Virus record (IMG/VR): IMGVR_UViG_3300033066_001079
Coordinates: 1-13,016 of that record
DNA length: 13,016 bases
Strand: one strand, 5' to 3'
Source of the DNA: a virus
Taxonomy: Duplodnaviria; Heunggongvirae; Uroviricota; Caudoviricetes
Below, one piece after another: positions 1 to 13,016 of the stretch (positions are counted from its first letter, which is position 1; every line of letters starts with the position of its first letter). Made by a program: the position numbers and the translations under genes. Below the pieces are notes generated by a model. That model was given only the letters and a program-made list of their open reading frames with translations. It made no database searches and was not told the DNA's origin.

Positions 1-3000
1 TCTTCGCCCTTTGCCTTGCCGATTGCTCCCTCTAGCTGTTCGAGAACATTAAGAGGCAACTCAACGGTTATAGTGCTAGGAGCCATTGCTGCTCCGGGCG
101 CTCCGCCTGCCATTGGATCTCCGCCGCCAACGTCTCCGCCCATTGGGTCGGATGCTGGGTCTGCCGCAGGGTCAGCGAACGGATCAACGTCTCCGCCAAA
201 CTCGTCGCCGCCACCCATGCCCGGATGTTCTGGCGATGCTCCGCCGCCCATCTCAGGAGATGAAGCCTCAGGCGCTCCGCCTCCCAACTCGTCGCTTAGG
301 TGATCTTCAAACTGAGCATACTTTGCCTTGATTTGGTCGCAAACAAAGCATGCCTTCTTCATTGTAAGGCCTGTGCGTACAAAGTCTTCTACGCATTCAA
401 CCATTTGGTCTTCCTTAGCCCAAACAGACGCTACCTTGATAGCAATGTCATTAGAATAGACGCCAGCCGTAGAAAGCTTCTGGCATACGCAGTCGGCAAG
501 GTTCTTTCCCTCGCATGGACCGCTTAGAGCAAGAGCGTTCTCTCCGTACTTACGAGCAATCTTCATGCGGCAAGTTTCGATTGGGAACTTATCGCCAAAG
601 CCTGCCGTCTTCTTGAGTCCAGCAAGAACTGATTCATTTGCAGAAGCAGTCTTTACTGCGACAAACAATCCCTTATTCTTCATAGCAAGAATTGTCTTGC
701 CCTTATCTGCCAACTGCATTGCGTCGAATACGTCCTCGCTGAGGCCATGCGTCTTTAGAGCAGAAGCAAAAGCCTTCTTGGTGCGGTGACAGCCGGGGCA
801 TCCCAAGTTCGTTGGTCTAGCGTCGAAACGCCATTCCGCAAACATAGCTTGCTTACCAGCTTGCTTTACGCCTCGTAGATGAACTTCATAGTTCTTGCCC
901 GTATCGAGGCACAAGAACTTATTGTCAGCAATCTTCATGACTTCAGACGAGCCAGTGAAAGGACTTACGCCGCCCAAAGACCATGTAAGACCCTTGGCCT
1001 TGAAGTCTTCCGAAGCCTTCTTAACCATTTGAGAGTTCAACTGAACCATTGCAGCAACAGGAATGCTTTCCTGAGCTTGGCTTGGGTCAGGCAGAGCAAA
1101 GCCTTCGCCGCCCTCTTCTTCGCCCATGCCTTCGCCGCCAAGACCCTCTTCTGTATCTTCAGCGCCAGAGTCAAGGATGCCCGGAGCTTTGGTCCATTCG
1201 CCAATGATCTTCCAAGTTACTTCTGCACCGCAGTTGTTACACTTAGACTTTCCATCAAGAACGTCTACGTCAGTAGAACCGCACATTCCGCAGAGAGTAC
1301 CCGGTGGCTTTGGCTGCATATCGCTATCGTCGCCGCCCATTGGGTCTTCTTCGCCAGCGCCAAGGTCACCCGGCTGTCCGCCTAGGTTCTCGGCTGGTGG
1401 CATTCCGCCTGCGCCCATATCAGCGCCGGGCATGGTTGCTCCGGCTCCGCCTTGAGCGCCGCCGCCTCCCATACCGCCGCCCATTTGTCCGCCCATCATC
1501 TGAGCTTCCTTAACAAGATTTGCTCGATTTGTAGAACGAGCGGTCTTGTCTTGCGGCTTTGCGGTTGCAGTCTTGAACTGAGAAGTTACAGCAGAAGCAA
1601 AAGCCTTCTTCTCTTCGTCAGAACAGATTCGCTCTTCCTTGCATTCAACTTCAAAGATTCCGGCTTCCTTGTCGAGGTTTACGTTTGCAATAACAAATGG
1701 AACGTCAATGTTCTGCTTAGCAAAAGCAAGCAATGACTTCATAAACTCGCTCTTATTTGCAGGGTCAGCCGTTACGTCGTCCTTCAAGGTTCCGCAAAGC
1801 TTATAAAGTCCGTCTTCTGGACGGTCTAGCTCGGCAAACGCCTGACGGAACATAGAAGCCTTATCAACTACGACTTCGCCAGTATCTTCTCTGGAAGCAA
1901 TCTTAGTATGAGCGCTGCTTTCGGCAGACGCAAACGCCTTCTTGTCAGTAACGACAAACTGGATAGCGTCAACAAAGTCCTCTCCCTTGAGATAACCAAT
2001 GTTGTCAGCCATTGCAGATATGAAGGAGTCGATTGGCTTTAGATTATTAGAAATGGAAGCGCTCTTGGCGAAATAGTCGCGACGCTTGCGGCTTGCAACT
2101 CTTGCCTGAGTCTTGGTTGGGGCTGCATTTACCAAAGTAAGGTAAGAAGCCTTGATTGCAGACTGAGGAGAAGCGGTAATCTGACGAACAGCGGCGCTAA
2201 TCTCGGTTGGAGTTAGGCCGTAGTTGGCGATTGCGTCTGCTACAGCAGAAGAAGCTGCCTTTACGAGATCCTTAGCCGAAGAAGCCCAACGAGCCGAATC
2301 CGACTTCCCTTCTGGGGAAACCTTCTTCTGTCCATTAAGCTGATCCTGCGTAACAGTCTCAGGAGCGGTCCACTTATGAGAAGACTGCAAGCTTACAAGC
2401 TGTGCTTCGGTCGTCTTGTCGGTATAATCGGAACCCAAAGACGAAGAAACTCGACGGCTCATCTCGGTCCATTGAGCTTCGGTAATAACTTCTGGGTACT
2501 CGTTCCAACGAACAGCATGGTCGCTATCAATAGACTCAAGCTGAGCCTGAGTAATAACTTCCGGAGCAGCATCCTTGCGGAGCGCGTTATTGTCAGAAGT
2601 TGTATCGTTAACGTCCTTAAGTTCGCCCTTACCCTCTAGCTGAGCCTGAGTGGTAACGGTTGGAGCCTTGTCCTCTCTTGGATGAAGCGGACCAGCGTTT
2701 TCTAGCTGCTTCTGAGTGGTAACTTCCTGCTGAGCAGAACTACCCGCCGCTGTTTTGGTGGTGTTGTGAGACATAGTTACTCCTGACTCCTTTTGGTATT
2801 GACTTAGTATTGTCTTGGCTGCTTCCTGAGGATTGGAAGTTATGAGAGCCTTAAGCTCATCGCCAAATTCCTCAGCAGACGCCCAACTTACGAGCTTATT
2901 ATCTTTCCATTTCCCTACTACTGTTTCGTTATTTTCTGCACTAGCAACTGTTACTTTAAGATTACCTTCAGATACTTCAGCAACGTGTTCAGAATTAGCC

Positions 3001-4388
3001 ACTTCTACTCTCCTTCTGTCGAATAAATCTAAAGATAGTTGTAGCGCTGAACTTACGCGCTCCAATTGACTTGTCTTATTTCTTGCTTGCTTCAAGAATT
3101 CCTTCTTTAATTCTTCTGAAGCCCCTGTAAAAGTCGGTCGAGTAACGCTTCCTAGGCCGTCCAAGCTTGCCGAAGACGGCGGAGAACCCTTTCCAGATTG
3201 CGCCTCTGGCTGAGGTTGAGCCTGTCCTTGACCGCCTACCTGTTGAGGATTCATGACTTGCTGAGACTGTCCCGTAACAGGAGCAGTCATTATGTTTCCA
3301 AGAGCAATCTGATGCTCTGGCGGAGACGCAAGTTGAGCATATCCCATTTCTACAAGTTCGTCTGTCAAAGACTGAACCTTAGCAAGTTGTTCAACAAGAT
3401 CGCTTACATAATCAAGCTGAACTTGATTCTTTTGAGCCATCATAGAACGAGCAACATGCTCCATAAGATTCATAGCCTGCGTCAAAGCCTGAAGCTCCGA
3501 CTGTCCAGCCGTCTTCTCAAGAGAACCCTCATTCATTTTGCTAACCGAGTCATTCATTACGGAAGCAATCTTCTGAAGCTCAGCTATCTTTGTAGATACC
3601 TTAGTCTCAAGATCTGCTGTAAGAATTTCGCAAACAAGGCAAGAATGGCAAGCCGGATTGACAACGAAGCTGTCTTCAATAAACTTGATGTCATAGTTCC
3701 ACTCGTAAACACGAGCTTCCTTATGAATCATCTCTTTAGATTCTGATTTCTTTTTACCGTCTACAGGGCAAGGCTCTTCTGGCTTGCATGAACTGTCATG
3801 GAACTTACAATCGTATTTTCCGCTTAGTTTACGGTTCTTTCCATTCTTTATGTGAGTACAGAACTCGTCGGCAGTATGAGCCTTGTTATGGCAAATAGAG
3901 CAAACGGAGTGACCGACTTGCGCTCCCATCGAGGTGCCTGTAATGTAGCCCTCTTCAATACCTCTCGCCAAACGAGGGTAGGCGCTGCGATCAACCATGT
4001 TAATGCAGTAAATGCCCTTTGAAGGCTCGTCATACCAAGCATGAACAACTTTGCCACGAGCGTTTTCTACGTTATCATTTTGATGGTTTACAAAGACAGG
4101 AACGCCAACAAATGAGGCTGCTCCCTTCTTTAGCTCTTCAATAGAGAAGCAGTCGCCGTTGTCATTTACTTCATTGGCTTTGATAGCAAAAACCTTAACG
4201 AACAAGTTCTCAGGGTTCTTTTCAATAGCCGCAGAAAGATCGAAGCCGCCAAGGTCTACGTCCTTGGACTTGTCTATAGAAGCAACTTTTATGCGACTAG
4301 TGTTATAAAGGCTCCATGCCCAACTCTTAGGCAAATTAAGAGCCTCAATAGACATTTTCTGATCTGTATGAGCTTTCTTCTTGAACAT
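1..4388 (-). CDS. Prohead (maturation) protease fused to a long scaffold/core-like region; at least 1462 aa, runs off the left edge
   Basis: Not in the ORF track because it has no stop in the window. Manual translation from ATG 4388 (AGGAG at 4398-4402, 9-nt spacer; TAATG overlap with the upstream stop) is open to base 1 and begins MFKKKAHTDQKMSIEAL. It has N-D-N-G-D, FVNH (H102), GTSMG (S153) and IEDSFVVNPA (E238), matching the H / G-x-S-x-G / E-x-S-x-V-x-x-P-A pattern of HK97-type/assemblin-fold prohead proteases. The rest is helical or low-complexity with Cys motifs. Confidence 0.85.
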   Translation of the reverse strand, partial: MFKKKAHTDQKMSIEALNLPKSWAWSLYNTSRIKVASIDKSKDVDLGGFDLSAAIEKNPENLFVKVFAIKANEVNDNGDCFSIEELKKGAASFVGVPVFVNHQNDNVENARGKVVHAWYDEPSKGIYCINMVDRSAYPRLARGIEEGYITGTSMGAQVGHSVCSICHNKAHTADEFCTHIKNGKNRKLSGKYDCKFHDSSCKPEEPCPVDGKKKSESKEMIHKEARVYEWNYDIKFIEDSFVVNPACHSCLVCEILTADLETKVSTKIAELQKIASVMNDSVSKMNEGSLEKTAGQSELQALTQAMNLMEHVARSMMAQKNQVQLDYVSDLVEQLAKVQSLTDELVEMGYAQLASPPEHQIALGNIMTAPVTGQSQQVMNPQQVGGQGQAQPQPEAQSGKGSPPSSASLDGLGSVTRPTFTGASEELKKEFLKQARNKTSQLERVSSALQLSLDLFDRRRVEVANSEHVAEVSEGNLKVTVASAENNETVVGKWKDNKLVSWASAEEFGDELKALITSNPQEAAKTILSQYQKESGVTMSHNTTKTAAGSSAQQEVTTQKQLENAGPLHPREDKAPTVTTQAQLEGKGELKDVNDTTSDNNALRKDAAPEVITQAQLESIDSDHAVRWNEYPEVITEAQWTEMSRRVSSSLGSDYTDKTTEAQLVSLQSSHKWTAPETVTQDQLNGQKKVSPEGKSDSARWASSAKDLVKAASSAVADAIANYGLTPTEISAAVRQITASPQSAIKASYLTLVNAAPTKTQARVASRKRRDYFAKSASISNNLKPIDSFISAMADNIGYLKGEDFVDAIQFVVTDKKAFASAESSAHTKIASREDTGEVVVDKASMFRQAFAELDRPEDGLYKLCGTLKDDVTADPANKSEFMKSLLAFAKQNIDVPFVIANVNLDKEAGIFEVECKEERICSDEEKKAFASAVTSQFKTATAKPQDKTARSTNRANLVKEAQMMGGQMGGGMGGGGAQGGAGATMPGADMGAGGMPPAENLGGQPGDLGAGEEDPMGGDDSDMQPKPPGTLCGMCGSTDVDVLDGKSKCNNCGAEVTWKIIGEWTKAPGILDSGAEDTEEGLGGEGMGEEEGGEGFALPDPSQAQESIPVAAMVQLNSQMVKKASEDFKAKGLTWSLGGVSPFTGSSEVMKIADNKFLCLDTGKNYEVHLRGVKQAGKQAMFAEWRFDARPTNLGCPGCHRTKKAFASALKTHGLSEDVFDAMQLADKGKTILAMKNKGLFVAVKTASANESVLAGLKKTAGFGDKFPIETCRMKIARKYGENALALSGPCEGKNLADCVCQKLSTAGVYSNDIAIKVASVWAKEDQMVECVEDFVRTGLTMKKACFVCDQIKAKYAQFEDHLSDELGGGAPEASSPEMGGGASPEHPGMGGGDEFGGDVDPFADPAADPASDPMGGDVGGGDPMAGGAPGAAMAPSTITVELPLNVLEQLEGAIGKAKGE
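80..290 (-). repeat. Gly/Met/Asp/Pro low-complexity coding tract in the protease-scaffold ORF
   Basis: Translates LGGGAPEASSPEMGGGASPEHPGMGGGDEFGGDVDPFADPAADPASDPMGGDVGGGDPMAGGAPGAAM. aacgtctccgcc recurs at about 129 and 186. Confidence 0.75.
1330..1500 (-). repeat. Gly/Met-rich coding tract in the protease-scaffold ORF
   Basis: Translates QMMGGQMGGGMGGGGAQGGAGATMPGADMGAGGMPPAENLGGQPGDLGAGEEDPMGGDD, directly after KEA. Confidence 0.75.
2337..2726 (-). repeat. Six degenerate peptide repeats, consensus x-x-x-T-[QE]-[AKD]-Q-[LW]
   Basis: EVTTQKQL, TVTTQAQL, EVITQAQL, EVITEAQW, DKTTEAQL, ETVTQDQL, spaced 22, 33, 23, 24 and 20 codons. DNA copies tagctgcttctgagtggtaac (2703-2723) and tagctgagcctgagtggtaac (2637-2657) differ by one codon. 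Confidence 0.8.
2772..2791 (-). promoter_or_regulatory. Candidate internal ribosome-binding site and in-frame ATG (M539)
   Basis: Minus strand reads AGGAGtcAGGAGtaactATG: two AGGAG motifs, with spacers of 12 and 5 nt before an in-frame ATG at 2774. Confidence 0.5.
3000..3015 (-). promoter_or_regulatory. Candidate internal ribosome-binding site and in-frame GTG (V463)
   Basis: Minus strand reads AAGGAGagtagaaGTG (7-nt spacer), in frame with the protease ORF. The motif is built from consecutive AGA AGG AGA Arg codons. Confidence 0.5.
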
Positions 4389-6172
4389 TAAGTCAATCTC
4401 CTAATCAAACTCTTTGCAACAGCGGCCATATTAGCATTAGGTTCTTCTGGGGCATTTTGTACTTGCGGCTGCTGCGGAGCTTCATTGGCTTGCGGTACTG
4501 CTTCTGGTTTAGGCTGAAGCGGCACTTTTGCTGGAACTCCCTTTGCTTCTTCAAGAGCTTTCTGAGCTACGTCCAAGCTTCGAGCTTGAGCGTTGATACG
4601 AGGTATGTTTCCTCCCTTACCGGCTGCTACTTGTACCATCTTATCAACTGCTGATTGAGGATCGTCTGTTTCGTCTACAACTGTCCATTCGTCTAAGTAC
4701 GTCTTCTTATTTCCGCGAGTATCTTGGTAATACCTTTCATTCTGCACTCTACGAGACTCGCTTATGCTATTAGATACTACCACCCATCGCACATCTCTAT
4801 CGACAATAACATCCTCTCCTCCTCGGACAGGATTCTCTACTTTAGAAATAGATTTAGGATCAACAAACGGTCGAGCTACAGCTTTTCCTTCTCCAAGATT
4901 CTTTGCTCTAATGAACTTAGGTCCAACCATTAGAATATAGAAACCTTCAAAAGAAGTATGTACGTCTTCTTTGCCTTTGTCCGCTCCCGTCATATCTAAG
5001 AAGTTTCGCAACTGCTGTAGAGCCTGAGCAGAAACCGCCCATTCTAGCTGATTTTGTGGGTTTGGAGCATTCAAACGATTCTCGCTATCAGGACTCATGG
5101 TATAAACCAATCTAGTTCCCTTAACAAGACCGTCATAGTCTATTGCTTCATTCTTACTAGCAGGACGAACGATGTGATTTGTTCCCAAACGAGAAGGCTC
5201 AAGAATCGCAGCAATCTGTTGAGGATTCATATAGACATTCTCTCCGTCAGAGAGAGCGGCGCTTCCTCGTCCCTTAAATCCTTTACGCTGTCGCAAGAAC
5301 AAGCATCCATTCTCGTCGGCATAAATGCCAAAGATAAACTTAGCCTGACTTGGTTGCTGAGAAACTAGGCTGTGAGCCATTCCATTGTCAATATGAAAAG
5401 CTATGGGACCAGTAATGTCTGGCTCTGATTGCTCAGCAACATAGTCTTCAACAACATTTTGATGGCCCTTGGGTGGAACATAAACCACACCCTTACCCAA
5501 CATGAGTTGATTGCCTTTGAAAAACTGCCTCGTGTTCTGTGCAGCTTGACCGGCAAAAACTGGGATCTCGTCAAGAGAACGAATAATAGGTCTGAAGCCC
5601 TCTCCATATGGAGCAATAACTAGTGGCCCCTGTGGATATGAGGAGTTTCCGCCTGTATATGGCTTTATCTGCCTATTCATGTTTCCCCGCTGAGTCATGA
5701 CTTCAAAGCCGGGAATACCTTTATAAGCATATCCAAAGAGCGAAATCCAATACTTAGTGCCAGCGCTATGCGGCGTGTTGTTTGGAGGAAGCTGAATTCC
5801 AGTTTGTTGAACAAACTTAGCTGTTTCTGCTAGCTTACGAATATTTGCGGGAGCGTCTGGACTATTGAGGTATCTTAGAGTGTCGTCTGATACGGCTCGG
5901 TCTTCGGCATAAGCGACCCATAGCATTCCTGCATAGTCTTTCTTTTGCGCGGCATCCATTTTTCTGAACTCGCCATCAAACTCTTCTAGCTTCTTAGAAA
6001 TAGCTCTCTTAGGAGCGTCTGGAAGTTTTGCCAATCGCTGACCTATAGAGTTTCGATCAAAACGAACCCAATGAAGATCTCTCTTATTGAGTTGATTCTG
6101 ACCTTGAAGCATGCCCATGTCGGACTGCTTCAATAGTCTGTCAATGATAGTTTTGGCAGAAGTATACATCAT
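4388..6172 (-). CDS. Hypothetical protein, 594 aa (candidate minor head/internal protein by position)
   Basis: Long open frame coupled at both ends: ATGA overlap at 6169-6172 and TAATG overlap at 4386-4390. No family recognised. Has a P/Q/E/A-rich C-terminal tail. Confidence 0.8.
   Translation of the reverse strand: MMYTSAKTIIDRLLKQSDMGMLQGQNQLNKRDLHWVRFDRNSIGQRLAKLPDAPKRAISKKLEEFDGEFRKMDAAQKKDYAGMLWVAYAEDRAVSDDTLRYLNSPDAPANIRKLAETAKFVQQTGIQLPPNNTPHSAGTKYWISLFGYAYKGIPGFEVMTQRGNMNRQIKPYTGGNSSYPQGPLVIAPYGEGFRPIIRSLDEIPVFAGQAAQNTRQFFKGNQLMLGKGVVYVPPKGHQNVVEDYVAEQSEPDITGPIAFHIDNGMAHSLVSQQPSQAKFIFGIYADENGCLFLRQRKGFKGRGSAALSDGENVYMNPQQIAAILEPSRLGTNHIVRPASKNEAIDYDGLVKGTRLVYTMSPDSENRLNAPNPQNQLEWAVSAQALQQLRNFLDMTGADKGKEDVHTSFEGFYILMVGPKFIRAKNLGEGKAVARPFVDPKSISKVENPVRGGEDVIVDRDVRWVVVSNSISESRRVQNERYYQDTRGNKKTYLDEWTVVDETDDPQSAVDKMVQVAAGKGGNIPRINAQARSLDVAQKALEEAKGVPAKVPLQPKPEAVPQANEAPQQPQVQNAPEEPNANMAAVAKSLIRRLT
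4398..4402 (-). promoter_or_regulatory. Shine-Dalgarno site of the protease-scaffold gene
   Basis: AGGAG 9 nt before ATG 4388, embedded in the AGG AGA codons at the end of the upstream gene. Confidence 0.7.
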
Positions 6173-6612
6173 GCCTTTACATGCTCCGGGATATCCACTG
6201 ACTCTAACGCTTCACGATTATAAGGAACTTGCCCCTTAGGAATACGAATACCCCATCGCTGGCTGGCATAGACCAACGCTCCCTTGATAGTTGGAAAATA
6301 TTCTCCATATGGGCTATAAGTCTTAGTATCAGGATCTTTGGTAAACTCTTCCAAAGGAATCTTCTTGATGCCTGCAAAGAACATCTTACCAACATTATGC
6401 TGCACAGACGGACCAACAACTACATAGTATATTGAGTTGGTAGTATAATCATGGCCTTCCCATCGGTAATAAGAACCCGGTCCAAGTTCTTTGTCGAACT
6501 TTTCCTTCTGAGGAGCAGACCTCTCTCGGTACATCTCCTCCCACTTAATACCACGGTCTTTGATTCTCTTGCGACCGGCGACCTTAGCCAAGTTGTATAC
6601 TAGTTCGCTCAT
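6169..6612 (-). CDS. Hypothetical protein, 147 aa
   Basis: ATGA overlap with the portal stop and GGAG 10 nt upstream. Aromatic-rich, globular-looking sequence (YYRWEGHDY...YYVVVGP...YGEYFPT). No function assignable. Confidence 0.8.
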   Translation of the reverse strand: MSELVYNLAKVAGRKRIKDRGIKWEEMYRERSAPQKEKFDKELGPGSYYRWEGHDYTTNSIYYVVVGPSVQHNVGKMFFAGIKKIPLEEFTKDPDTKTYSPYGEYFPTIKGALVYASQRWGIRIPKGQVPYNREALESVDIPEHVKA

Positions 6613-8936
6613 CCTTCTTTTACTCCGTCCGGTATGATGGCACCCTTAGAAACGGTACATCCATCAAACGGACTGAAATGGGCTGTCCTATACTTCGCAT
6701 TTTCTGCTCCGTTGGCCTTCTTTGACAGAGCTTTCTTCTCTTCTGCGGCGTCAGAGACTTCCTTAGTAATGACTTGTTGGATCTTATCAAGATTTTCGCT
6801 AATCGCCATTTCGGTGAATCGAAGAACTCTCCAACCCAATCCAGCAAGAGTCATATCTCTTTCTTTGTCCTTCTGCTTATCTTCAACAGAAGAATGCCAT
6901 TTCTCTCCGTCTACCTCTATATCAACTCCAAGAGACGGAATAGCAAAATCCATAAGATAGAAATTCGAATCATTTGGAACTTGCTGCTTATACTGAGCAA
7001 AGAGTTGGAATGGAAGATTCATAGCAACTAGCGATTTATACATACGAGACTCTGGCCTTGTAAGTTGAATAGTGCTAGGACGAAGAGGCTGCATTGGCTC
7101 GTCAGCTTCCTTAGGCCCCTTGCCTTTTCTATAGATCTTCTGCTGACCTTGAGCAGCCGCTCCCATACCTCCGGGAGCCCCGCCGCCGCCCATGCCGCCA
7201 CCCATACCGCCGCCTGCCCCACCCATACCTCCGTCCATGCCTCCAGCGCCCGGCATTCCGCCTGCGCCGCCTCCCATGCCGCCAGTTGGGTCCATGCCGG
7301 GAGCGCCGCCTGCTCCTCCGGGAGCGCCGCCTCCGCCGCCTCCCATGCCACCGCCCATACCTCCACCGCCTGCTCCGCCTCCTTGACCGCCCTGCATAAG
7401 CTGACCATTCTGCATGGCATGAACTTGTTCTTCTCGAATCCTCTCGGTTTCAAGATCATAATCCAAGTCAAACTGCTCAAGAAGAGTTTGGGCCGAGATA
7501 AGACCGCTCTGCTGCATCTGTAGCAACATCTGAAGATTGTTAGTATTGTCTCGTAGACGCAGATCGTTCCACTTGATTCTAGGATACAAGTAGGTTGTTT
7601 CTTTGAACTCCTTAGTCTCTTCCTCATCAATGAAACCTTGCATCTTTGCAACAGGCAAAAAGATATTCTTCTCAATCCATTGCGCCAGTTCATTACGCCA
7701 AGACTCGATACGACGAATCATAACTTCTACACCAACCTGAGCAGAGTTATAGCCAGCCATTTCTCCGTTCAATAGAGTCTGGTTGAGCATAAGTCCGTCA
7801 AGGATTTCCTTACCGACAAACTCAAGCTCTTGATTGATGTTATGAATCTTACCGCTTGCGCCGTACCATTCATACTCAAAATTATTGTGCGTTACAATTG
7901 TAAGATTTGGATCGTTTGCAACAGCGCCCAACTGCTGGGACGCATCTGCAATTGCGTCTTCGTCTGCCGGTCGGTCGTCAGAACCAATCTTGACAACTCG
8001 AACAGGAAGAATCATTCTCTCGGCAACAATCCAGTTAGCCGTCATAAGCTTTGTTTTATAAGCCAAAACAGTGAACAAGCGACGGAGCAAAGACTCTCCA
8101 TATGTTCCGTAAGGAACGCCGCCATGCTTCATATGACTTGTAACTCTGTTCGATAGCAAGATTGGCTTCTTAGCCATAATCTGAACTTTGATATTCTCAG
8201 GAATCTGGTCGTACAGGAACTTAGGCTGCTTTGTCTGAATAATCTTCTGAAGCTCTTCGTCTGGTAGAAGAACAATCTGAGGCTCCTGCGAAATAGGAGT
8301 CTTCATTACCTCGATCCAGTCTGGATTCAGTACGGTAAGCCGTCCAATCGTTCCGTCAGGATGGTTACAAGGCTCTCCGCTCTCTTGGTCTATGCCGCTA
8401 CCTTTGCAATGAGGACAATCAATTTCCGTCATTACAAACACGTCGCCAAGCAAGAATCTCTGATGGCTGATCATTCTAAGCCAATACATAAGATCTAGCT
8501 TTTCAACCAATCGCTCGAAGAATCGCAGCGTACTCTTCTTCTTGCACTGAAGTTTCATTCCGTTGATAGGGAACTGCGAATAGAAATCTATACCTGCCGC
8601 TACCTTTGGTTCATTCTCATAGTAGTGCCTTGCCCATTGATAAACTTCTTTTCTCTTGCTTGCAATCTGCCAGTTTTGCGGCGTATGCAATGGAGAAAAG
8701 AACATAGGCTGAGTCATAATGACGTTTGCTCCCGAGCCAGCAAACTGAGCAGCCTTAGTTATGGGGAATCGCATATTTGTAGAACTGCAATAGCCTGCGT
8801 AGGCGTTTAGCTGACCCGGAGGCTTCATTCTAGGATTAAAGCCATCGTCTACTACTTGGCCCTTAATAGCGGAGATCTTAGACGCCGCTGTTTTATCAGG
8901 CAAGTTCATTCTAATCGGTTTGTTCTTATCAGACAT
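6609..8936 (-). CDS. Portal protein with Gly/Met linker and C-terminal DUF559/Vsr-like endonuclease domain, 775 aa
   Basis: aa about 64-505 resemble a tailed-phage portal (YYENEPKVAAGIDFYSQFP, LTVLNPDWIEV, HMKH...YGTYGESLLRRLF, LP-V-R-VVKIG, QSGLISAQTLLEQFDLDYDLETERIREE), and the gene lies upstream of the protease. aa about 625-727 match the DUF559/Vsr pattern: T-x-x-E-x-x-M-Y-x-x-L...Q...YLMDF(D663)...IEVDG(E674,D676)EKWH(H681)...D-x-x-RD-x-x-L-x-x-x-GWRVLRF. Confidence 0.8.
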   Translation of the reverse strand: MSDKNKPIRMNLPDKTAASKISAIKGQVVDDGFNPRMKPPGQLNAYAGYCSSTNMRFPITKAAQFAGSGANVIMTQPMFFSPLHTPQNWQIASKRKEVYQWARHYYENEPKVAAGIDFYSQFPINGMKLQCKKKSTLRFFERLVEKLDLMYWLRMISHQRFLLGDVFVMTEIDCPHCKGSGIDQESGEPCNHPDGTIGRLTVLNPDWIEVMKTPISQEPQIVLLPDEELQKIIQTKQPKFLYDQIPENIKVQIMAKKPILLSNRVTSHMKHGGVPYGTYGESLLRRLFTVLAYKTKLMTANWIVAERMILPVRVVKIGSDDRPADEDAIADASQQLGAVANDPNLTIVTHNNFEYEWYGASGKIHNINQELEFVGKEILDGLMLNQTLLNGEMAGYNSAQVGVEVMIRRIESWRNELAQWIEKNIFLPVAKMQGFIDEEETKEFKETTYLYPRIKWNDLRLRDNTNNLQMLLQMQQSGLISAQTLLEQFDLDYDLETERIREEQVHAMQNGQLMQGGQGGGAGGGGMGGGMGGGGGGAPGGAGGAPGMDPTGGMGGGAGGMPGAGGMDGGMGGAGGGMGGGMGGGGAPGGMGAAAQGQQKIYRKGKGPKEADEPMQPLRPSTIQLTRPESRMYKSLVAMNLPFQLFAQYKQQVPNDSNFYLMDFAIPSLGVDIEVDGEKWHSSVEDKQKDKERDMTLAGLGWRVLRFTEMAISENLDKIQQVITKEVSDAAEEKKALSKKANGAENAKYRTAHFSPFDGCTVSKGAIIPDGVKEG
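7161..7391 (-). repeat. Gly/Met low-complexity linker in the portal (aa 516-592)
   Basis: 77 codons, of which 50 are Gly and 10 are Met. A 15-nt direct repeat, ccgggagcgccgcct, occurs at 7297-7311 and 7318-7332. Confidence 0.85.
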
Positions 8937-10651: not shown

Positions 10652-11437
10652 TCACTCCTTGGTGTTTCGTTGACTAAGAACCTTGTACAATCTATCTACA
10701 GCGTCATTATGCACGCTCTTATTAGTCGTCTTTTCTTCTTGATTGAGAATACCGTCCATGAATCTAGCAGATGCGTCCTTTGACGAAAACGCCTTTGACG
10801 GAGCATTTGCAACCTTGACCTTTGGAGCCTCTGGCTCTGTCTTTGGACTTACTCTGTTGTTCAAAGCAGTAAGACGGTCAAAGTTCTCATTCGTGTCAAA
10901 AATACTCAACTGGTGGGCAGGAACCCAGCCCTTGTTGTTTAGACTTCCAGAAGTTGATTGATGGATAGTAGAAGCCTTCTTTTCAAGAGCCTCTGCTTCG
11001 CCCTCGCCAAGCTTAGGAGACATGCTTTGCTTGTATTCAGCTTGCTTGAGTTCTCGCAAACGTCCAGAAGAAGCCTTCTCTTCAGCAATACGCTCTTTAG
11101 AAGAAGCTGTCTTGGCAAGGTTAGCAAGAACGTCGCTATCCCAAATAGAGTTCTTTCCAGTAACGCCAACCTGCTTGGTAGGACCGCCAATATCAGTAAT
11201 ACCACCATTGCTGTCGCAACGGGCTGGTCTTACGCTTGAAGAGCTACGAGCCATTGGGTTATTGAACTCGGTAGAGTCATAACCTTGCTCTTTAGCCCAA
11301 GAGCGATCCTTTTCAATCTTCTTGGCCTGCTTCATTTCAGGGACTCTCTCGGCAAGTTCCTTACGATAGTTTGGCTTACCGCTGTCCTTGAGCAATGAAT
11401 CTACAATACTGTTTTGATCAGAATGCTTACGAAGCAT
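10652..11437 (-). CDS. Hypothetical protein, 261 aa (start revised from 11449 to ATG 11437)
   Basis: GGAGGT at 11442-11447 lies 4 nt before ATG 11437 (MLRKHSDQNSIVDSLL) and overlaps the end of the upstream gene. K/S/A-rich, with WDSDVL and WVPAHQLSIFD motifs. Confidence 0.8.
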   Translation of the reverse strand: MLRKHSDQNSIVDSLLKDSGKPNYRKELAERVPEMKQAKKIEKDRSWAKEQGYDSTEFNNPMARSSSSVRPARCDSNGGITDIGGPTKQVGVTGKNSIWDSDVLANLAKTASSKERIAEEKASSGRLRELKQAEYKQSMSPKLGEGEAEALEKKASTIHQSTSGSLNNKGWVPAHQLSIFDTNENFDRLTALNNRVSPKTEPEAPKVKVANAPSKAFSSKDASARFMDGILNQEEKTTNKSVHNDAVDRLYKVLSQRNTKE

Positions 11438-12275
11438 GATTACCTCCAAAGCCCTGATTCAACAGGGAGTCAACTATACTGTTTCTACTGTTTTTGATCA
11501 ACGAATTCTGACTATAAGCTGCCTTGGCCTGAGGAGGCTTCTTGCCTACGCTCGGACCAATCTTGCCAGCCGTTTCAGCAACTTCTTCTGCATACTCTCT
11601 TGCGCCAGAAAAATCTTCATGAGCTTCGGCCTGTTGAGGAAAGGAAAACCTTACTTCAAATCGACCGGGCTTTGGACTCTTCATAACCTTAAGAGAGTTT
11701 ACCGGGAAGTTCTGCTTGATCATTTGCTTAAAAAGCTCAACGCCGTTTTGGGCGTCAAGCTGCTCAAGATCTGTTTTATTGATGTTCATGATTACGTTGA
11801 CTTGATTCTTGATATCATCTGTATCAAAATCGAAAACCGACTTTGAGTTCAGAATCAAATGAATCCAACGTTCTTCATAACCAACTTTTGTCAAATACGA
11901 ACGGAAGAAGTCTTCTAGAGAACGATAGATACTATCTTCTTTAGATTTTGCCGCAGGCTGGGCACCTGCTGCGTCTCCGCCCGCCCCAGCGCCAGCCGCT
12001 CCCTGAGGAGCTTCTGCTGGTGACTTGCCGCCAACTGCCTTATTAAGAGCATCTTGGTCAGGAACTTTAGGAGAAGCTCCGGGCTGCTTTTGTTTTTGGA
12101 GTGCATTGTCAAGCTTACCGATAGGGTTGAAATTACCACCCTGAGGCGCTTTCGCTCCTCCGGGAGTAATATCTTCCTGTTCAACAGTATTACGCTTTGC
12201 GGGAGCATTCGCTCCGTTTGGCGTAGCCTGTTGCAGCTTCATAAATCTACGAGTGCCGCTCGGTACAATAGCCAT
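11427..12275 (-). CDS. Hypothetical protein, 282 aa
   Basis: AGGAG at 12282-12286, 6 nt before the ATG. Disordered A/G/P/Q/K N-terminal half, then a central alpha/beta-looking domain (IYRSLEDFFRSYL...GRFEVRFSFP). Confidence 0.85.
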   Translation of the reverse strand: MAIVPSGTRRFMKLQQATPNGANAPAKRNTVEQEDITPGGAKAPQGGNFNPIGKLDNALQKQKQPGASPKVPDQDALNKAVGGKSPAEAPQGAAGAGAGGDAAGAQPAAKSKEDSIYRSLEDFFRSYLTKVGYEERWIHLILNSKSVFDFDTDDIKNQVNVIMNINKTDLEQLDAQNGVELFKQMIKQNFPVNSLKVMKSPKPGRFEVRFSFPQQAEAHEDFSGAREYAEEVAETAGKIGPSVGKKPPQAKAAYSQNSLIKNSRNSIVDSLLNQGFGGNHAS

Positions 12276-12306: not shown

Positions 12307-13016
12307 TTACTTATCAGCGAACATGGCTTCAACGTAGGCAGCCGGATAGAGCTTCTTCCAATAAGTCTTCCATTCGTTCTTGGTCTTGGAGTCGAGATTA
12401 GCAATCTTGACATAAGCAGGAGACGAAGCTTCCTTCTTCTCGGCCTTGTCAGACTTCTCAGCCTTCTTCTCGCCTTCAGAACCGTCGTCGCCCTTAGAAG
12501 ATGGAGCGCCGCAGCACTCGTCAACCTTATGGGTTACGCCCTTGTTCTCAGCAGGAACCTCGTCATTTGAGGCCTTCTTGCCAACTGGCTTGCCCTTGAT
12601 TTCCTCAACCTTAACTTTCTTGGTAACGATTACTGGCTTCTTGCCAGCTTCCTTTACCTCAGCCTTGGCTTCGGATTCCTTCTTCTTTTCGCCTTCTGGC
12701 TTGCCGGTGTTGGTTCCGCCAACTGGGTCCATTTCCTGCATCTTGACGTGGCATTCCCCGTCCTTGCTCTTGCAGTCGCCCTTCTCGGCTACCTTAACTT
12801 CCTTCTCAGCGGTAGCTTCTTTCTCTTCCGCTTCTGGCTTTGCTTCTACAGTGCCTTCTGGCTTCTTTGCCTCGTCCTTCTTGCCGAAAGGAGGAGCCTT
12901 CTTGTCTCCAAAATTGGAGGCATTAGCTTCCTTAGTTACGGCTTCAGTAGAAGCGGTCTTGCTGAGAGCAGCATTGCTTTCTGCGAGCTTCTGGACGAAT
13001 GCCCCGAAGCCAGCAG
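12307..13016 (-). CDS. 5'-truncated K/E/A-rich protein (more than 235 aa visible) with an aromatic C-terminal helix; scaffold/core-like
   Basis: The frame of the track's 144-aa ORF stays open to the right edge (AGFGAFVQKLAESNAALSKTASTEAVTKEANASNFGDKKAPPFGKK...CHVKMQEMDPV), so the true start is outside the window. Ends AYVKIANLDSKTKNEWKTYWKKLYPAAYVEAMFADK. Confidence 0.8.
   Translation of the reverse strand, partial: AGFGAFVQKLAESNAALSKTASTEAVTKEANASNFGDKKAPPFGKKDEAKKPEGTVEAKPEAEEKEATAEKEVKVAEKGDCKSKDGECHVKMQEMDPVGGTNTGKPEGEKKKESEAKAEVKEAGKKPVIVTKKVKVEEIKGKPVGKKASNDEVPAENKGVTHKVDECCGAPSSKGDDGSEGEKKAEKSDKAEKKEASSPAYVKIANLDSKTKNEWKTYWKKLYPAAYVEAMFADK

What the first reader, a model, noticed from the sequence alone, without database searches (positions are those of the whole stretch)
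1..4388. Hidden giant protease-scaffold polyprotein (at least 1462 aa) missed by the ORF track
Seen: one uninterrupted minus-strand frame from 4388 past base 1. The protease motifs occupy only aa 1-253, followed by more than 1200 aa of helical, repeat, Zn-ribbon and Gly/Met segments. Established: protease-scaffold fusions exist (P2 gpO, lambda gpC/Nu3, herpesvirus UL26) but are a few hundred residues long. Inference: this is an unusually large, multi-module inner-core polyprotein that the protease cuts up during head maturation.
Basis: partly seen in the sequence, partly recalled or inferred. Interest (0 to 1): 0.72.

Follow-up and report, generated by a model that had tools for sequence, protein, structure and literature searches.

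The report
Giant phage protease-scaffold head gene
The long hidden frame is real: it is the first three quarters of a roughly 2000-residue head-assembly protein of a giant uncultured phage related to Bacillus phage G. A herpesvirus-like capsid protease at the front is tied to a long, acidic, beads-on-a-string tail, and the gene probably also makes a protease-less version from an internal start.

Summary
Observation confirmed. The minus-strand frame 3..4388 is open for 1462 codons and runs off the start of a 77-kb viral record. Independent assemblies hold co-linear relatives of about 1990-2010 aa, so about 530 codons are missing and the frame is not an artefact.

- Context: relatives keep portal - 147 aa - about 600 aa - giant - 209 aa - 298-aa capsid protein (52% identical to phage G's).
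- Tail: five folded modules with no recognised fold are separated by disordered linkers. It is strongly acidic.
- New here: Met539 is preceded by a Shine-Dalgarno sequence in every relative whose Met aligns there (10 of 10, against 0-5 of 13 at other conserved Met columns). This points to a nested protease-less product, as in lambda C/Nu3 and herpesvirus UL26/UL26.5.
- Motif: K-[TVI]-A-[ASG] is tenfold enriched in the head module. It marks conserved sites in linkers and is a plausible cleavage code.

No cleavage or scaffold function has been shown. The scan met this family before on other DNA, and cultured actinophages carry 1089-1511-aa versions. I rate it a new variant of a known kind.

The parts
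3..4388 (-). Open-ended ORF, 1462 codons: the 5' three quarters of a head gene of about 2000 codons
   Evidence: Full-length relatives of 1990-2010 aa. 1991-aa ORF in L007.
4398..4402 (-). Shine-Dalgarno AGGAG of the main start. The ATG at 4386-4388 overlaps the upstream stop as TAATG.
4281..4388 (-). N-terminal leader, aa 1-36. It is basic, modelled with low confidence, and ends in the conserved I-K-V-A-S site (aa 33-37).
   Evidence: pLDDT below 50 at aa 1-13 and 29-38. K34 and A36 are nearly invariant. The motif is conserved.
3603..4280 (-). Prohead serine protease domain, aa 37-262, with the assemblin/T4 gp21 fold
4083..4085 (-). His102 codon, the putative catalytic His (VFVNHQN)
   Evidence: Invariant in 33/33 and 37/37.
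3930..3932 (-). Ser153 codon, the putative catalytic Ser (GTSMG). Relatives carry an intein between G151 and T152.
   Evidence: Invariant in 37/37. Intein junction G|C...SN|TSMG in L017 and L022.
3852..3902 (-). Zinc knuckle inserted in the protease domain (C163, C166, C177, H179)
   Evidence: C163 and C166 are invariant. The last ligand is His or Cys in different relatives. Also present in phage G gp19.
3504..3515 (-). K292-T-A-G295: candidate release site just after the protease domain
   Evidence: Conserved as K-[TKAV]-A-G across relatives of 35-70% identity. Lies in a stretch with pLDDT below 50. Cleavage is inferred, not shown.
3348..3500 (-). Conserved helical hairpin, aa 297-347
   Evidence: The best-conserved stretch outside the protease. 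Two helices in the model. Only generic helical-hairpin fold matches.
3114..3332 (-). Gln/Pro/Gly-rich disordered linker, aa 353-425
   Evidence: pLDDT 28-30. Composition. Low conservation.
2781..3113 (-). Alpha/beta module, aa 426-536: a long helix, a four-stranded sheet, then helices
   Evidence: pLDDT 60-82.
2772..2792 (-). Internal in-frame start: AAGGAGTCAGGAG (2780-2792) followed by ATG of Met539 (2772-2774)
   Evidence: Sequence. A strong SD is present in 10/10 aligned relatives, against 0-5/13 at the other 13 conserved Met columns. The SD is spelt by different codons in different subclades. A weaker AAGGA is seen in L025/L026.
2745..2756 (-). K545-T-A-A548: conserved motif 6 aa after Met539, a candidate leader-removal site of the nested product
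   Evidence: Lies in a disordered stretch. p147 and the portal have the same Met-leader-K-x-A layout.
2319..2720 (-). Six [EV]-[VI]-T-x-x-Q-[LW] repeats, aa 557-690, each opening a short helix
   Evidence: The residues are invariant or nearly so in A2. Helices in the model.
1584..2276 (-). Helical plus alpha/beta module, aa 705-935. It holds two KKAFASA motifs and the K829-I-A-S site.
   Evidence: pLDDT 71-88..
1299..1583 (-). Gly/Met-rich disordered linker, aa 936-1030
   Evidence: pLDDT 26-55. 23 Gly in 60 residues. 26 nt are shared with the portal tether.
1200..1298 (-). Zinc ribbon, aa 1031-1063 (C1033, C1036, C1050, C1053)
   Evidence: All four Cys are invariant in A2. Beta hairpins with pLDDT 65-81.
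1062..1199 (-). Acidic Gly/Glu linker, aa 1064-1109 (net charge -12)
282..1061 (-). Cys-rich beta plus helical module, aa 1110-1369. It is the only basic module (pI 8.9) and holds the K1246-T-A-S and K1260-T-A-G sites.
   Evidence: pLDDT 61-88. Invariant Cys. Charge. Found almost only inside giant proteins.
54..281 (-). Gly/Asp/Pro-rich disordered linker, aa 1370-1445 (net charge -13)
3..53 (-). Conserved short helix, aa 1446-1462, cut by the contig end

Best explanation
This is the truncated head-maturation protease/scaffold gene of an uncultured phage of roughly 500 kb that shares its head module with Bacillus phage G.

Shown:
- An N-terminal serine protease of about 225 residues with the assemblin/T4 gp21 fold and invariant His102 and Ser153.
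- The protease is covalently joined to a long acidic tail. The tail has five conserved folded modules separated by 45-95-residue disordered Gln/Pro, Gly/Met and Gly/Asp/Glu linkers.
- The gene sits between the portal and (in relatives) a 209-aa protein plus a 298-aa HK97-type capsid protein that has no delta domain.

Inferred:
1. The tail is the assembly scaffold or core. It carries the protease into the procapsid, as in herpesvirus pUL26 and lambda C.
2. A conserved Shine-Dalgarno sequence plus ATG at Met539 produces a protease-less protein with the same C-terminus. This would be the bulk scaffold, about 1450 aa in full-length relatives.
3. After shell assembly the protease cuts at K-[TVI]-A-[S/G/A] sites in the linkers (aa 34, 292 and 545, perhaps 829, 1246 and 1260). 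The same motif lies near the N-termini of the portal and other head proteins. Cutting would free the protease and fragment the acidic tail so that it leaves as DNA enters.
For: Fold:
- The AF2 model of aa 1-262 has pLDDT 85.
- Every listed Foldseek PDB hit is a herpesvirus assemblin or T4 gp21.

Sequence:
- phrog_18299 'head maturation protease' at 1e-8 and phrog_2774 at 2e-30.
- 46% identity to phage G gp19 (hhalign 99.8%). PMC12484599 calls gp19 the head maturation protease.
- His102 and Ser153 are invariant in 37/37 sequences.
- Inteins are inserted one residue before Ser153 in 17 of 227 family proteins.

Context:
- The portal is 30% identical to phage G gp14.
- The order portal-147-6xx-giant-209-MCP is kept in at least 15 loci.
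- The MCP is 52% identical to phage G gp27.

Nested start:
- A strong SD precedes Met539 in 10/10 sequences, against 0-5/13 at other conserved Met columns.
- The SD is made from K-E-S codons in some relatives and from S/L-G-V codons in others.

Motif:
- K-[TVI]-A-[ASG] occurs at 2.95 per 1000 aa in window ORFs against 0.30 per 1000 in the remaining 64 kb.
- The sites are conserved across relatives of 35-70% identity.
- The sites at aa 34, 292 and 545 lie in low-confidence linkers.
- The motif is also present 10-15 aa from the N-termini of p147 and the portal.

Tail properties:
- 446 of 1199 residues have pLDDT below 50, lying between modules at 70-88.
- Net charge is -44 here and -85 to -183 in full-length relatives. 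The last 120 aa are conserved and slightly basic.

The UL26/UL26.5 logic is described in PMC4498786.
Against: - No experiment or proteome shows cleavage, scaffold function or use of the internal start.
- No tail module matches a known scaffold or any known fold. Foldseek PDB and BFVD gave no hit at E <= 0.001, and VIA-align gave only generic helical hairpins. These searches used one 1199-residue model, which is a weak test.
- Pfam finds nothing, not even S78, S77 or S21 models, for the protease domain.
- Several motif copies (aa 829, 1318) lie in confidently folded helices and may be structural.
- The strongly conserved, metal-binding and partly basic modules look more elaborate than a disposable scaffold needs to be.
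- The C-terminal quarter, where capsid binding would be expected, is missing from this record.
- Phage G has a 300-aa stand-alone protease. Its downstream genes gp20-gp24 show no similarity to the tail.
Confidence: 0.6

Rival explanations
1. The tail is cargo, not scaffold. It is a polyprotein of internal head or ejection proteins. The protease releases them inside the capsid, and they stay with the DNA and are injected, like T4 internal proteins or the inner-body and ejection proteins of phiKZ and SPN3US. A mixed outcome is possible, with some modules expelled and others kept.
For: - The modules are conserved and folded. They include an invariant four-Cys zinc ribbon and a basic (pI 8.9) Cys-rich module that is found almost only in this family.
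- The candidate cut sites would release discrete domains.
- Large phages do package processed internal proteins (PMC13282480).
Against: - The tail is strongly acidic overall (net -44 here, down to -183 in relatives). That suits expulsion better than residence in packed DNA.
- There is no similarity to any known internal or ejection protein.
- A conserved nested start and a conserved C-terminal domain are hallmarks of protease/scaffold gene pairs.
Confidence: 0.22
2. The protein is not processed. It acts as a long internal tether or ruler that stays intact. The K-x-A motif is a binding or targeting signal rather than a cut site, and the protease domain acts only on other head proteins.
For: - Half of the motif copies lie in or next to folded helices.
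- The motif also sits at the N-termini of other head proteins, where it could act as a capsid-targeting tag.
- The repeated [VI]-T-x-x-Q-[LW] helices look like multivalent binding elements.
Against: - The motif copies at aa 34, 292 and 545 are in disordered linkers at module borders.
- By my own knowledge, not tested here, the small residues at the last two motif positions resemble the Ala-Ser cut sites of assemblins.
- A 213-kDa acidic protein kept in many copies would compete with DNA for space.
Confidence: 0.12
3. The long frame is an artefact: a mis-assembly, a chance open frame, or a run of fused pseudogenes.
For: Only that the ORF is truncated by the contig end, so it is absent from a default ORF list.
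Against: - There are 1462 stop-free codons.
- An identical protein comes from a second contig, and over 100 co-linear relatives of about 2000 aa come from independent assemblies.
- Conservation is module-wise, with invariant Cys, His and Ser.
- Synteny is conserved.
Confidence: 0.01

Closest known systems
Herpesvirus pUL26 / pUL26.5 (assemblin protease-scaffold precursor with a nested in-frame scaffold gene)
   Same: - The protease is fused in frame to a C-terminal assembly protein.
- A second, protease-less product shares the C-terminus (here through a conserved SD plus ATG at Met539).
- A candidate release site follows the protease domain.
- The candidate sites end in Ala followed by a small residue, like the Ala-Ser sites of assemblins (own knowledge).
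- The UL26 organisation is described in PMC4498786.
   Different: - About 2000 aa against about 525-635 aa.
- No sequence similarity (13-17% identity in structural alignments).
- The nested product would arise by internal translation initiation, not from a separate transcript.
- The catalytic partner of Ser and His is not identified.
- A zinc knuckle is inserted in the protease domain.
- The tail is a chain of folded modules and long disordered linkers.
- Cleavage has not been demonstrated.
Bacillus (Lysinibacillus) phage G gp19 and its head module (portal gp14, capsid protein gp27)
   Same: - Closest cultured relative.
- Protease domain 46% identical over 125 aa, including the zinc knuckle.
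- Portal 30% identical.
- Capsid protein of relatives 52% identical.
- gp19 carries K-I-A-G and K-I-A-S near its two ends.
   Different: - gp19 is a stand-alone protein of 300 aa.
- Six separate genes (gp20-gp25) lie between it and the decoration and capsid genes.
- None of the four tested (gp20, gp21, gp22, gp24) resembles the tail.
Long N-terminal-protease proteins of cultured actinophages (PHROG 2774): Mycobacterium phage Alice/Bxz1 gp90 (1511 aa), Gordonia phage Stormageddon gp13 (1089 aa, annotated 'capsid maturation protease')
   Same: - Homologous protease domain at the N-terminus (34% over about 220 aa, E 5e-30).
- A very long C-terminal extension.
- The same gene order: portal - large protein - protease protein - small protein - major head protein.
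   Different: - The tails share no detectable similarity beyond about residue 262.
- Those phages are 136-160 kb, not about 500 kb.
- The K-[TVI]-A-[ASG] motif is nearly absent there (1 copy in gp90).
- No nested start was examined there.
Phage lambda C/Nu3 and phage Mu I/Z (nested protease/scaffold genes; own knowledge)
   Same: One frame encodes a protease-plus-scaffold protein. From an internal start it also encodes the scaffold alone, with a shared C-terminus.
   Different: - Lambda C is a ClpP/S49-type protease, not assemblin-fold.
- Those proteins are a few hundred residues long.
- Here the nested product alone would be about 1450 aa.

Membership tests
Assemblin-fold prohead serine proteases (herpesvirus S21, T4 gp21 S77, HK97 gp4 S78) | Assemblin / gp21 three-dimensional fold | tested here: met
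   [not shown]
Assemblin-fold prohead serine proteases (herpesvirus S21, T4 gp21 S77, HK97 gp4 S78) | Conserved catalytic Ser and His | tested here: met
   His102 and Ser153 are invariant in 37/37 full-length relatives and in phage G gp19. Inteins target the site. Their juxtaposition in 3D and the third catalytic residue were not examined.
Assemblin-fold prohead serine proteases (herpesvirus S21, T4 gp21 S77, HK97 gp4 S78) | Match to the curated sequence models of S21, S77 or S78 (Pfam) | tested here: not met
   No Pfam family at E <= 5 for aa 1-262. Only PHROG models match. At sequence level it is a separate family with the same fold.
Assemblin-fold prohead serine proteases (herpesvirus S21, T4 gp21 S77, HK97 gp4 S78) | Gene lies in the head module between the portal and the major capsid protein | tested here: met
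   The portal is at 6609-8936. In relatives the capsid gene lies about 800 nt downstream of the giant gene.
Assemblin-fold prohead serine proteases (herpesvirus S21, T4 gp21 S77, HK97 gp4 S78) | Proteolytic processing of head proteins | not testable with these tools
   Only indirect evidence: an enriched and conserved K-[TVI]-A-[ASG] motif.
Nested protease/scaffold genes (lambda C/Nu3, Mu I/Z, herpesvirus UL26/UL26.5) | Conserved in-frame internal start that gives a protease-less, co-C-terminal product | tested here: met
   An SD plus ATG at Met539 is present in 10/10 aligned relatives, against 0-5/13 at control Met columns. Synonymous re-spelling of the SD is seen. Use of the start in vivo is not shown.
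Nested protease/scaffold genes (lambda C/Nu3, Mu I/Z, herpesvirus UL26/UL26.5) | The C-terminal part acts as the capsid scaffold and binds the capsid protein | not testable with these tools
   Circumstantial only. The tail is acidic and partly disordered, relatives have a conserved and slightly basic last 120 aa, and the capsid protein lacks a delta domain. The C-terminus is absent from this window.
Nested protease/scaffold genes (lambda C/Nu3, Mu I/Z, herpesvirus UL26/UL26.5) | Self-release of the protease at a site after the protease domain | tested here: inconclusive
   A conserved K292-T-A-G lies in a low-confidence linker right after the domain. No cut has been measured.
PHROG 2774 / actinophage long 'capsid maturation protease' (Alice gp90, Stormageddon gp13) | Homology along the whole protein | tested here: not met
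   Only positions 38-171 of the 1263-position profile match. BLASTP to gp90 covers aa 34-257 only. The tail has no match in 50,697 phage records.
PHROG 2774 / actinophage long 'capsid maturation protease' (Alice gp90, Stormageddon gp13) | N-terminal protease domain plus an extension of over 800 aa, at the same position in the head module | tested here: met
Internal head / inner-body / ejection proteins (T4 IPs, phiKZ and SPN3US) | Sequence or fold similarity to known internal head proteins | tested here: inconclusive
   No hit in PHROGs, Pfam, BFVD or PDB for the tail. The fold search used a single multi-domain model, which is a weak test.

The most novel reading that the evidence does not exclude
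The protein of about 213 kDa, mostly made as the roughly 1450-residue nested form, is a molecular ruler. Its chain of folded modules and long flexible linkers would span the radius of a very large (phage G-like, T=52-class) procapsid. It would set how big a shell the minimal 298-aa, delta-domain-less capsid protein builds. The six [VI]-T-x-x-Q-[LW] helices and the conserved C-terminus would be the multivalent shell contacts. If so, capsid size in this clade would be encoded by the length of one gene.
Probability: 0.15. Interest if true: 0.8.

Novelty: new variant of a known kind. Interest (0 to 1): 0.55.

Why it matters
How very large phage capsids are built to a defined size from a small HK97-type capsid protein without a delta domain is an open question. 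Phage G, the only cultured phage of this size, has a head-assembly pathway that is essentially uncharacterised.

This family is hundreds of metagenomic clusters strong, on contigs up to 548 kb. It concentrates the protease, a probable scaffold and a readable set of signals into one gene. Those signals are a nested start, a candidate cut motif and repeated helices.

That yields concrete predictions that can be tested by expression in E. coli. It extends the parallel between herpesvirus and phage head assembly (assemblin fold, nested scaffold gene, cut sites ending in Ala) to the largest known phages. It also allows a functional annotation for a large set of 'hypothetical proteins', including gp90 of the much-studied Bxz1-type mycobacteriophages.

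Tried and rejected
The window's own contig could not be extended, and the record itself ends at base 1.
- Second nested start at GTG/Val463, from an earlier first-stage note: rejected. That column is Val in only 16/37 sequences and is gapped in many.
- Tail as a fusion of phage G's separate genes: BLASTP found only gp19. hhalign of the family profile against gp20, gp21, gp22 and gp24 gave probabilities below 1%, while gp19 as the positive control gave 99.8%. The templates were single sequences, so sensitivity was limited.
- Tail against all phage records by tblastn: no match.
- Pfam on five segments: nothing above noise.
- ESM Atlas for aa 1095-1365: no usable hit.
- Sequence search of the PDB with aa 1-263: none.
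- Short family members as natural split forms: rejected. Relatives of P0123 (472 aa) at 86-87% identity are ORFs of at least 949 and 2356 aa. Short hits to the Cys-rich module come from short contigs or broken genes.
- A strict motif with a hydrophobic residue before Lys missed the copies in the other head proteins. The relaxed K-[TVI]-A-[ASG] was used afterwards.
- Literature searches found no description of a roughly 2000-aa protease-scaffold in phage G-like phages.
Full report
**1. The observation**

With open ends allowed, the window has one ORF at 3..4388 on the minus strand. It has 1462 codons and an ATG start, and it runs off the edge. The window is the first 13 kb of a 77-kb IMG/VR record that CheckV rates 15% complete. 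The frame is therefore truncated by the contig end, which explains why a default ORF list omits it.

The start is credible. AGGAG lies 9 nt upstream, and the ATG overlaps the stop of the preceding gene as TAATG.

The frame is not an artefact:
- A protein identical over all 1462 residues comes from another contig (P0002, 1583 aa).
- More than 100 co-linear relatives at 33-70% identity come from independent JGI, ENA, NCBI, Tara and Logan assemblies, on contigs up to 548 kb.
- Most relatives are 1820-2050 aa. Those of 2200-2450 aa carry inteins.

So about 530 codons are missing here.

**2. Genomic context**

Upstream on the same strand lie a 594-aa ORF, a 147-aa ORF and the portal at 6609-8936. 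The portal matches phrog_16240 at 5e-41 and Portal_Mu, and it has a C-terminal DUF559 nuclease domain. It is 30% identical to phage G gp14.

In at least 15 related loci the order is portal - 147 aa - about 600 aa - giant gene - 209 aa - 298-aa major capsid protein. That capsid protein is 52% identical to the structurally characterised phage G gp27 and has no delta domain.

**3. The N-terminal domain is a prohead protease**

- PHROG models match aa 57-189: phrog_2774 at 2e-30 and phrog_18299 'head maturation protease' at 1e-8.
- Pfam finds nothing.
- Residues 67-191 are 46% identical to phage G gp19 (hhalign 99.8%). PMC12484599 lists gp19 as the head maturation protease.
- An AlphaFold2 model of aa 1-262 built on 33 sequences has pLDDT 85.
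- Every listed Foldseek hit is an assemblin or gp21, although the best E-value is only 2e-3.
- His102 (VFVNHQN) and Ser153 (GTSMG) are invariant in 37 of 37 full-length relatives.
- In 17 of 227 family proteins an intein of about 389 aa (Cys1 ... Asn, then Thr) is inserted between Gly151 and Thr152, one residue before Ser153. Inteins typically sit in functionally critical sites.
- A zinc knuckle (C163, C166, C177, H179) is inserted in the domain and is shared with phage G gp19.

That criterion is not met.

**4. The tail**

An AlphaFold2 model of aa 264-1462 on 32 sequences shows beads on a string: 446 of 1199 residues have pLDDT below 50, lying between modules at 70-88. In order along the protein:

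| Residues | Feature |
|---|---|
| 297-347 | conserved helical hairpin |
| 353-425 | Gln/Pro/Gly linker |
| 426-536 | alpha/beta module |
| 537-612 | disordered stretch |
| 557-690 | six [EV]-[VI]-T-x-x-Q-[LW] repeats, each opening a short helix |
| 705-935 | helical plus alpha/beta module |
| 936-1030 | Gly/Met linker |
| 1033-1053 | invariant four-Cys zinc ribbon |
| 1064-1109 | acidic linker |
| 1110-1369 | Cys-rich module |
| 1370-1445 | Gly/Asp/Pro linker |
| 1446-1462 | short helix, cut by the contig end |

The conservation profile follows this map.

The tail is acidic. Net charge is -44 here and -85 to -183 in full-length relatives, with pI 4.4-5.2. Only the Cys-rich module is basic. 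The last 120 residues of relatives are conserved and slightly basic.

No module matched a Pfam family, a phage record, the ESM Atlas or a known fold. The fold searches used one large multi-domain model and are weak tests. The Cys-rich module occurs essentially only inside these giant proteins.

**5. A nested start**

An earlier first-stage note on this window flagged two internal starts, and I tested both.

Met539 is supported:
- In the window its ATG (2772-2774) is preceded by AAGGAGTCAGGAG.
- Among 14 Met columns conserved in at least 70% of 13 DNA loci, only this one has a strong Shine-Dalgarno sequence upstream: 10 of 10 sequences. The other columns have 0-5 of 13.
- The SD is spelt by K-E-S codons (AAGGAGTC) in distant relatives.
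- Close relatives write K-E as AAAGAA, and there S/L-G-V codons supply the SD (tcAGGAGt). This argues for selection at the RNA level.
- Still more distant relatives have a weaker AAGGA.
- The site lies in a disordered linker at a module border.

Val463 is not conserved and is rejected.

The gene therefore probably makes two proteins. One is the full-length protease fusion. The other is a protease-less form with the same C-terminus, about 1450 aa in full-length relatives. This is the logic of lambda C/Nu3 and Mu I/Z (own knowledge) and of herpesvirus UL26/UL26.5 (PMC4498786).

**6. A candidate cleavage code**

- K-[TVI]-A-[ASG] occurs 8 times in the giant protein and once or twice in each of four other head-module ORFs.
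- That is 12 copies per 4073 aa in the window, against 6 per 20,003 aa in the remaining 64 kb of the record, a tenfold enrichment.
- The copies at aa 34, 292, 545, 775 (K-S-A-S in the window), 1246 and 1260 are kept across relatives of 35-70% identity while their flanks vary.
- Those at aa 34, 292 and 545 lie in low-confidence linkers.
- The site at 292 follows the protease domain directly, like a release site.
- The site at 545 lies 6 residues after Met539. The nested product would then begin Met - short leader - K-T-A-A, the same layout as p147 (K10) and the portal (K15).
- Phage G gp19 has the motif near both ends.
- The capsid and 209-aa proteins of relatives lack it.
- By analogy with the Ala-Ser sites of assemblins (own knowledge), cutting after the Ala is the natural guess.
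- Copies at aa 829 and 1318 lie in folded helices and may not be cut.
- No cut has been measured anywhere in this family. An earlier follow-up of this scan reached the same reading on a related genome.

**7. Comparison with what is known**

- The protease domain has 2399 representative relatives at E <= 1e-3. Most of the best 150 are proteins of 1100-2700 aa with the domain at the N-terminus.
- In cultured phages the same domain heads Mycobacterium phage Alice/Bxz1 gp90 (1511 aa, annotated hypothetical) and Gordonia phage Stormageddon gp13 (1089 aa, annotated 'capsid maturation protease'). The gene order is the same, but the tails are unrelated.
- In phage G the protease is a stand-alone 300-aa protein.
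- The literature I could search does not describe the roughly 2000-aa form or its nested start.
- The scan has noted the same family in several other genomes.

**8. Verdict**

| Claim | Status | Probability |
|---|---|---|
| The frame is real and open | confirmed | - |
| N-terminal domain is a prohead protease | well supported | about 0.9 |
| Nested start at Met539 | likely | about 0.7 |
| K-x-A motif is a cleavage code | plausible | about 0.5 |
| Tail is a scaffold or core rather than retained cargo | preferred on charge, disorder, gene logic and position; unproven | about 0.55-0.6 |

It is a new, very large and modular variant of the known protease/scaffold gene pair. It is not a new kind of system.

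Noticed in passing
L017:10001-15274 and L022:10001-15559 (relatives); equivalent to window 3930-3938: Inteins of about 389 aa (Cys1 ... Ser-Asn, then Thr) are inserted between Gly151 and Thr152 of the protease, one residue before the invariant Ser153. 17 of 227 family proteins carry one at this spot.
   Followed up: partly
window 1459-1484 and 7333-7358: The Gly/Met-rich linker of the giant protein and the Gly/Met tether of the portal share 26 nt at 92% identity. Two head proteins therefore use the same unusual linker type.
   Followed up: no
window 6609-8936 (minus strand): The portal protein carries a C-terminal DUF559/Vsr-like endonuclease domain (Pfam 7e-10, aa 648-727). An earlier follow-up of this scan already covers it.
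   Followed up: no
window 6169-6612, 6609-8936, 10652-11449 and 12307-13014; G000:C1:13137-14363 and 63703-66510: K-[TVI]-A-[ASG] lies 10-15 residues from the N-termini of p147 and the portal, and also near the N-terminus of a 935-aa ORF 50 kb away. That ORF may therefore be another processed virion protein.
   Followed up: partly
window 818-826, 929-937 and 1206-1214 of the protein (nt about 1911-1937, 1578-1604, 747-773): The heptapeptide K-K-A-F-A-S-A occurs three times, each at the end of a folded module and twice just after a Cys pair. It is conserved as [KT]-[AS]-F-A-[SA] in relatives. Its function is unknown.
   Followed up: partly
L023 (phage G) 16840-22468: Phage G gp19-gp25, the genes between its protease and its decoration and capsid genes, add up to about 1800 aa, close to the length of the giant protein. 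No sequence or profile similarity to the tail was found for gp20, gp21, gp22 or gp24.
   Followed up: partly
L025:3442-7479 and L026:3066-5861: In a more distant subclade the ORF just upstream of the giant gene is itself very large (1345 and 931 aa). This recalls the large protein before the protease gene in Alice (gp89, 1271 aa) and Stormageddon (gp12, 973 aa).
   Followed up: no
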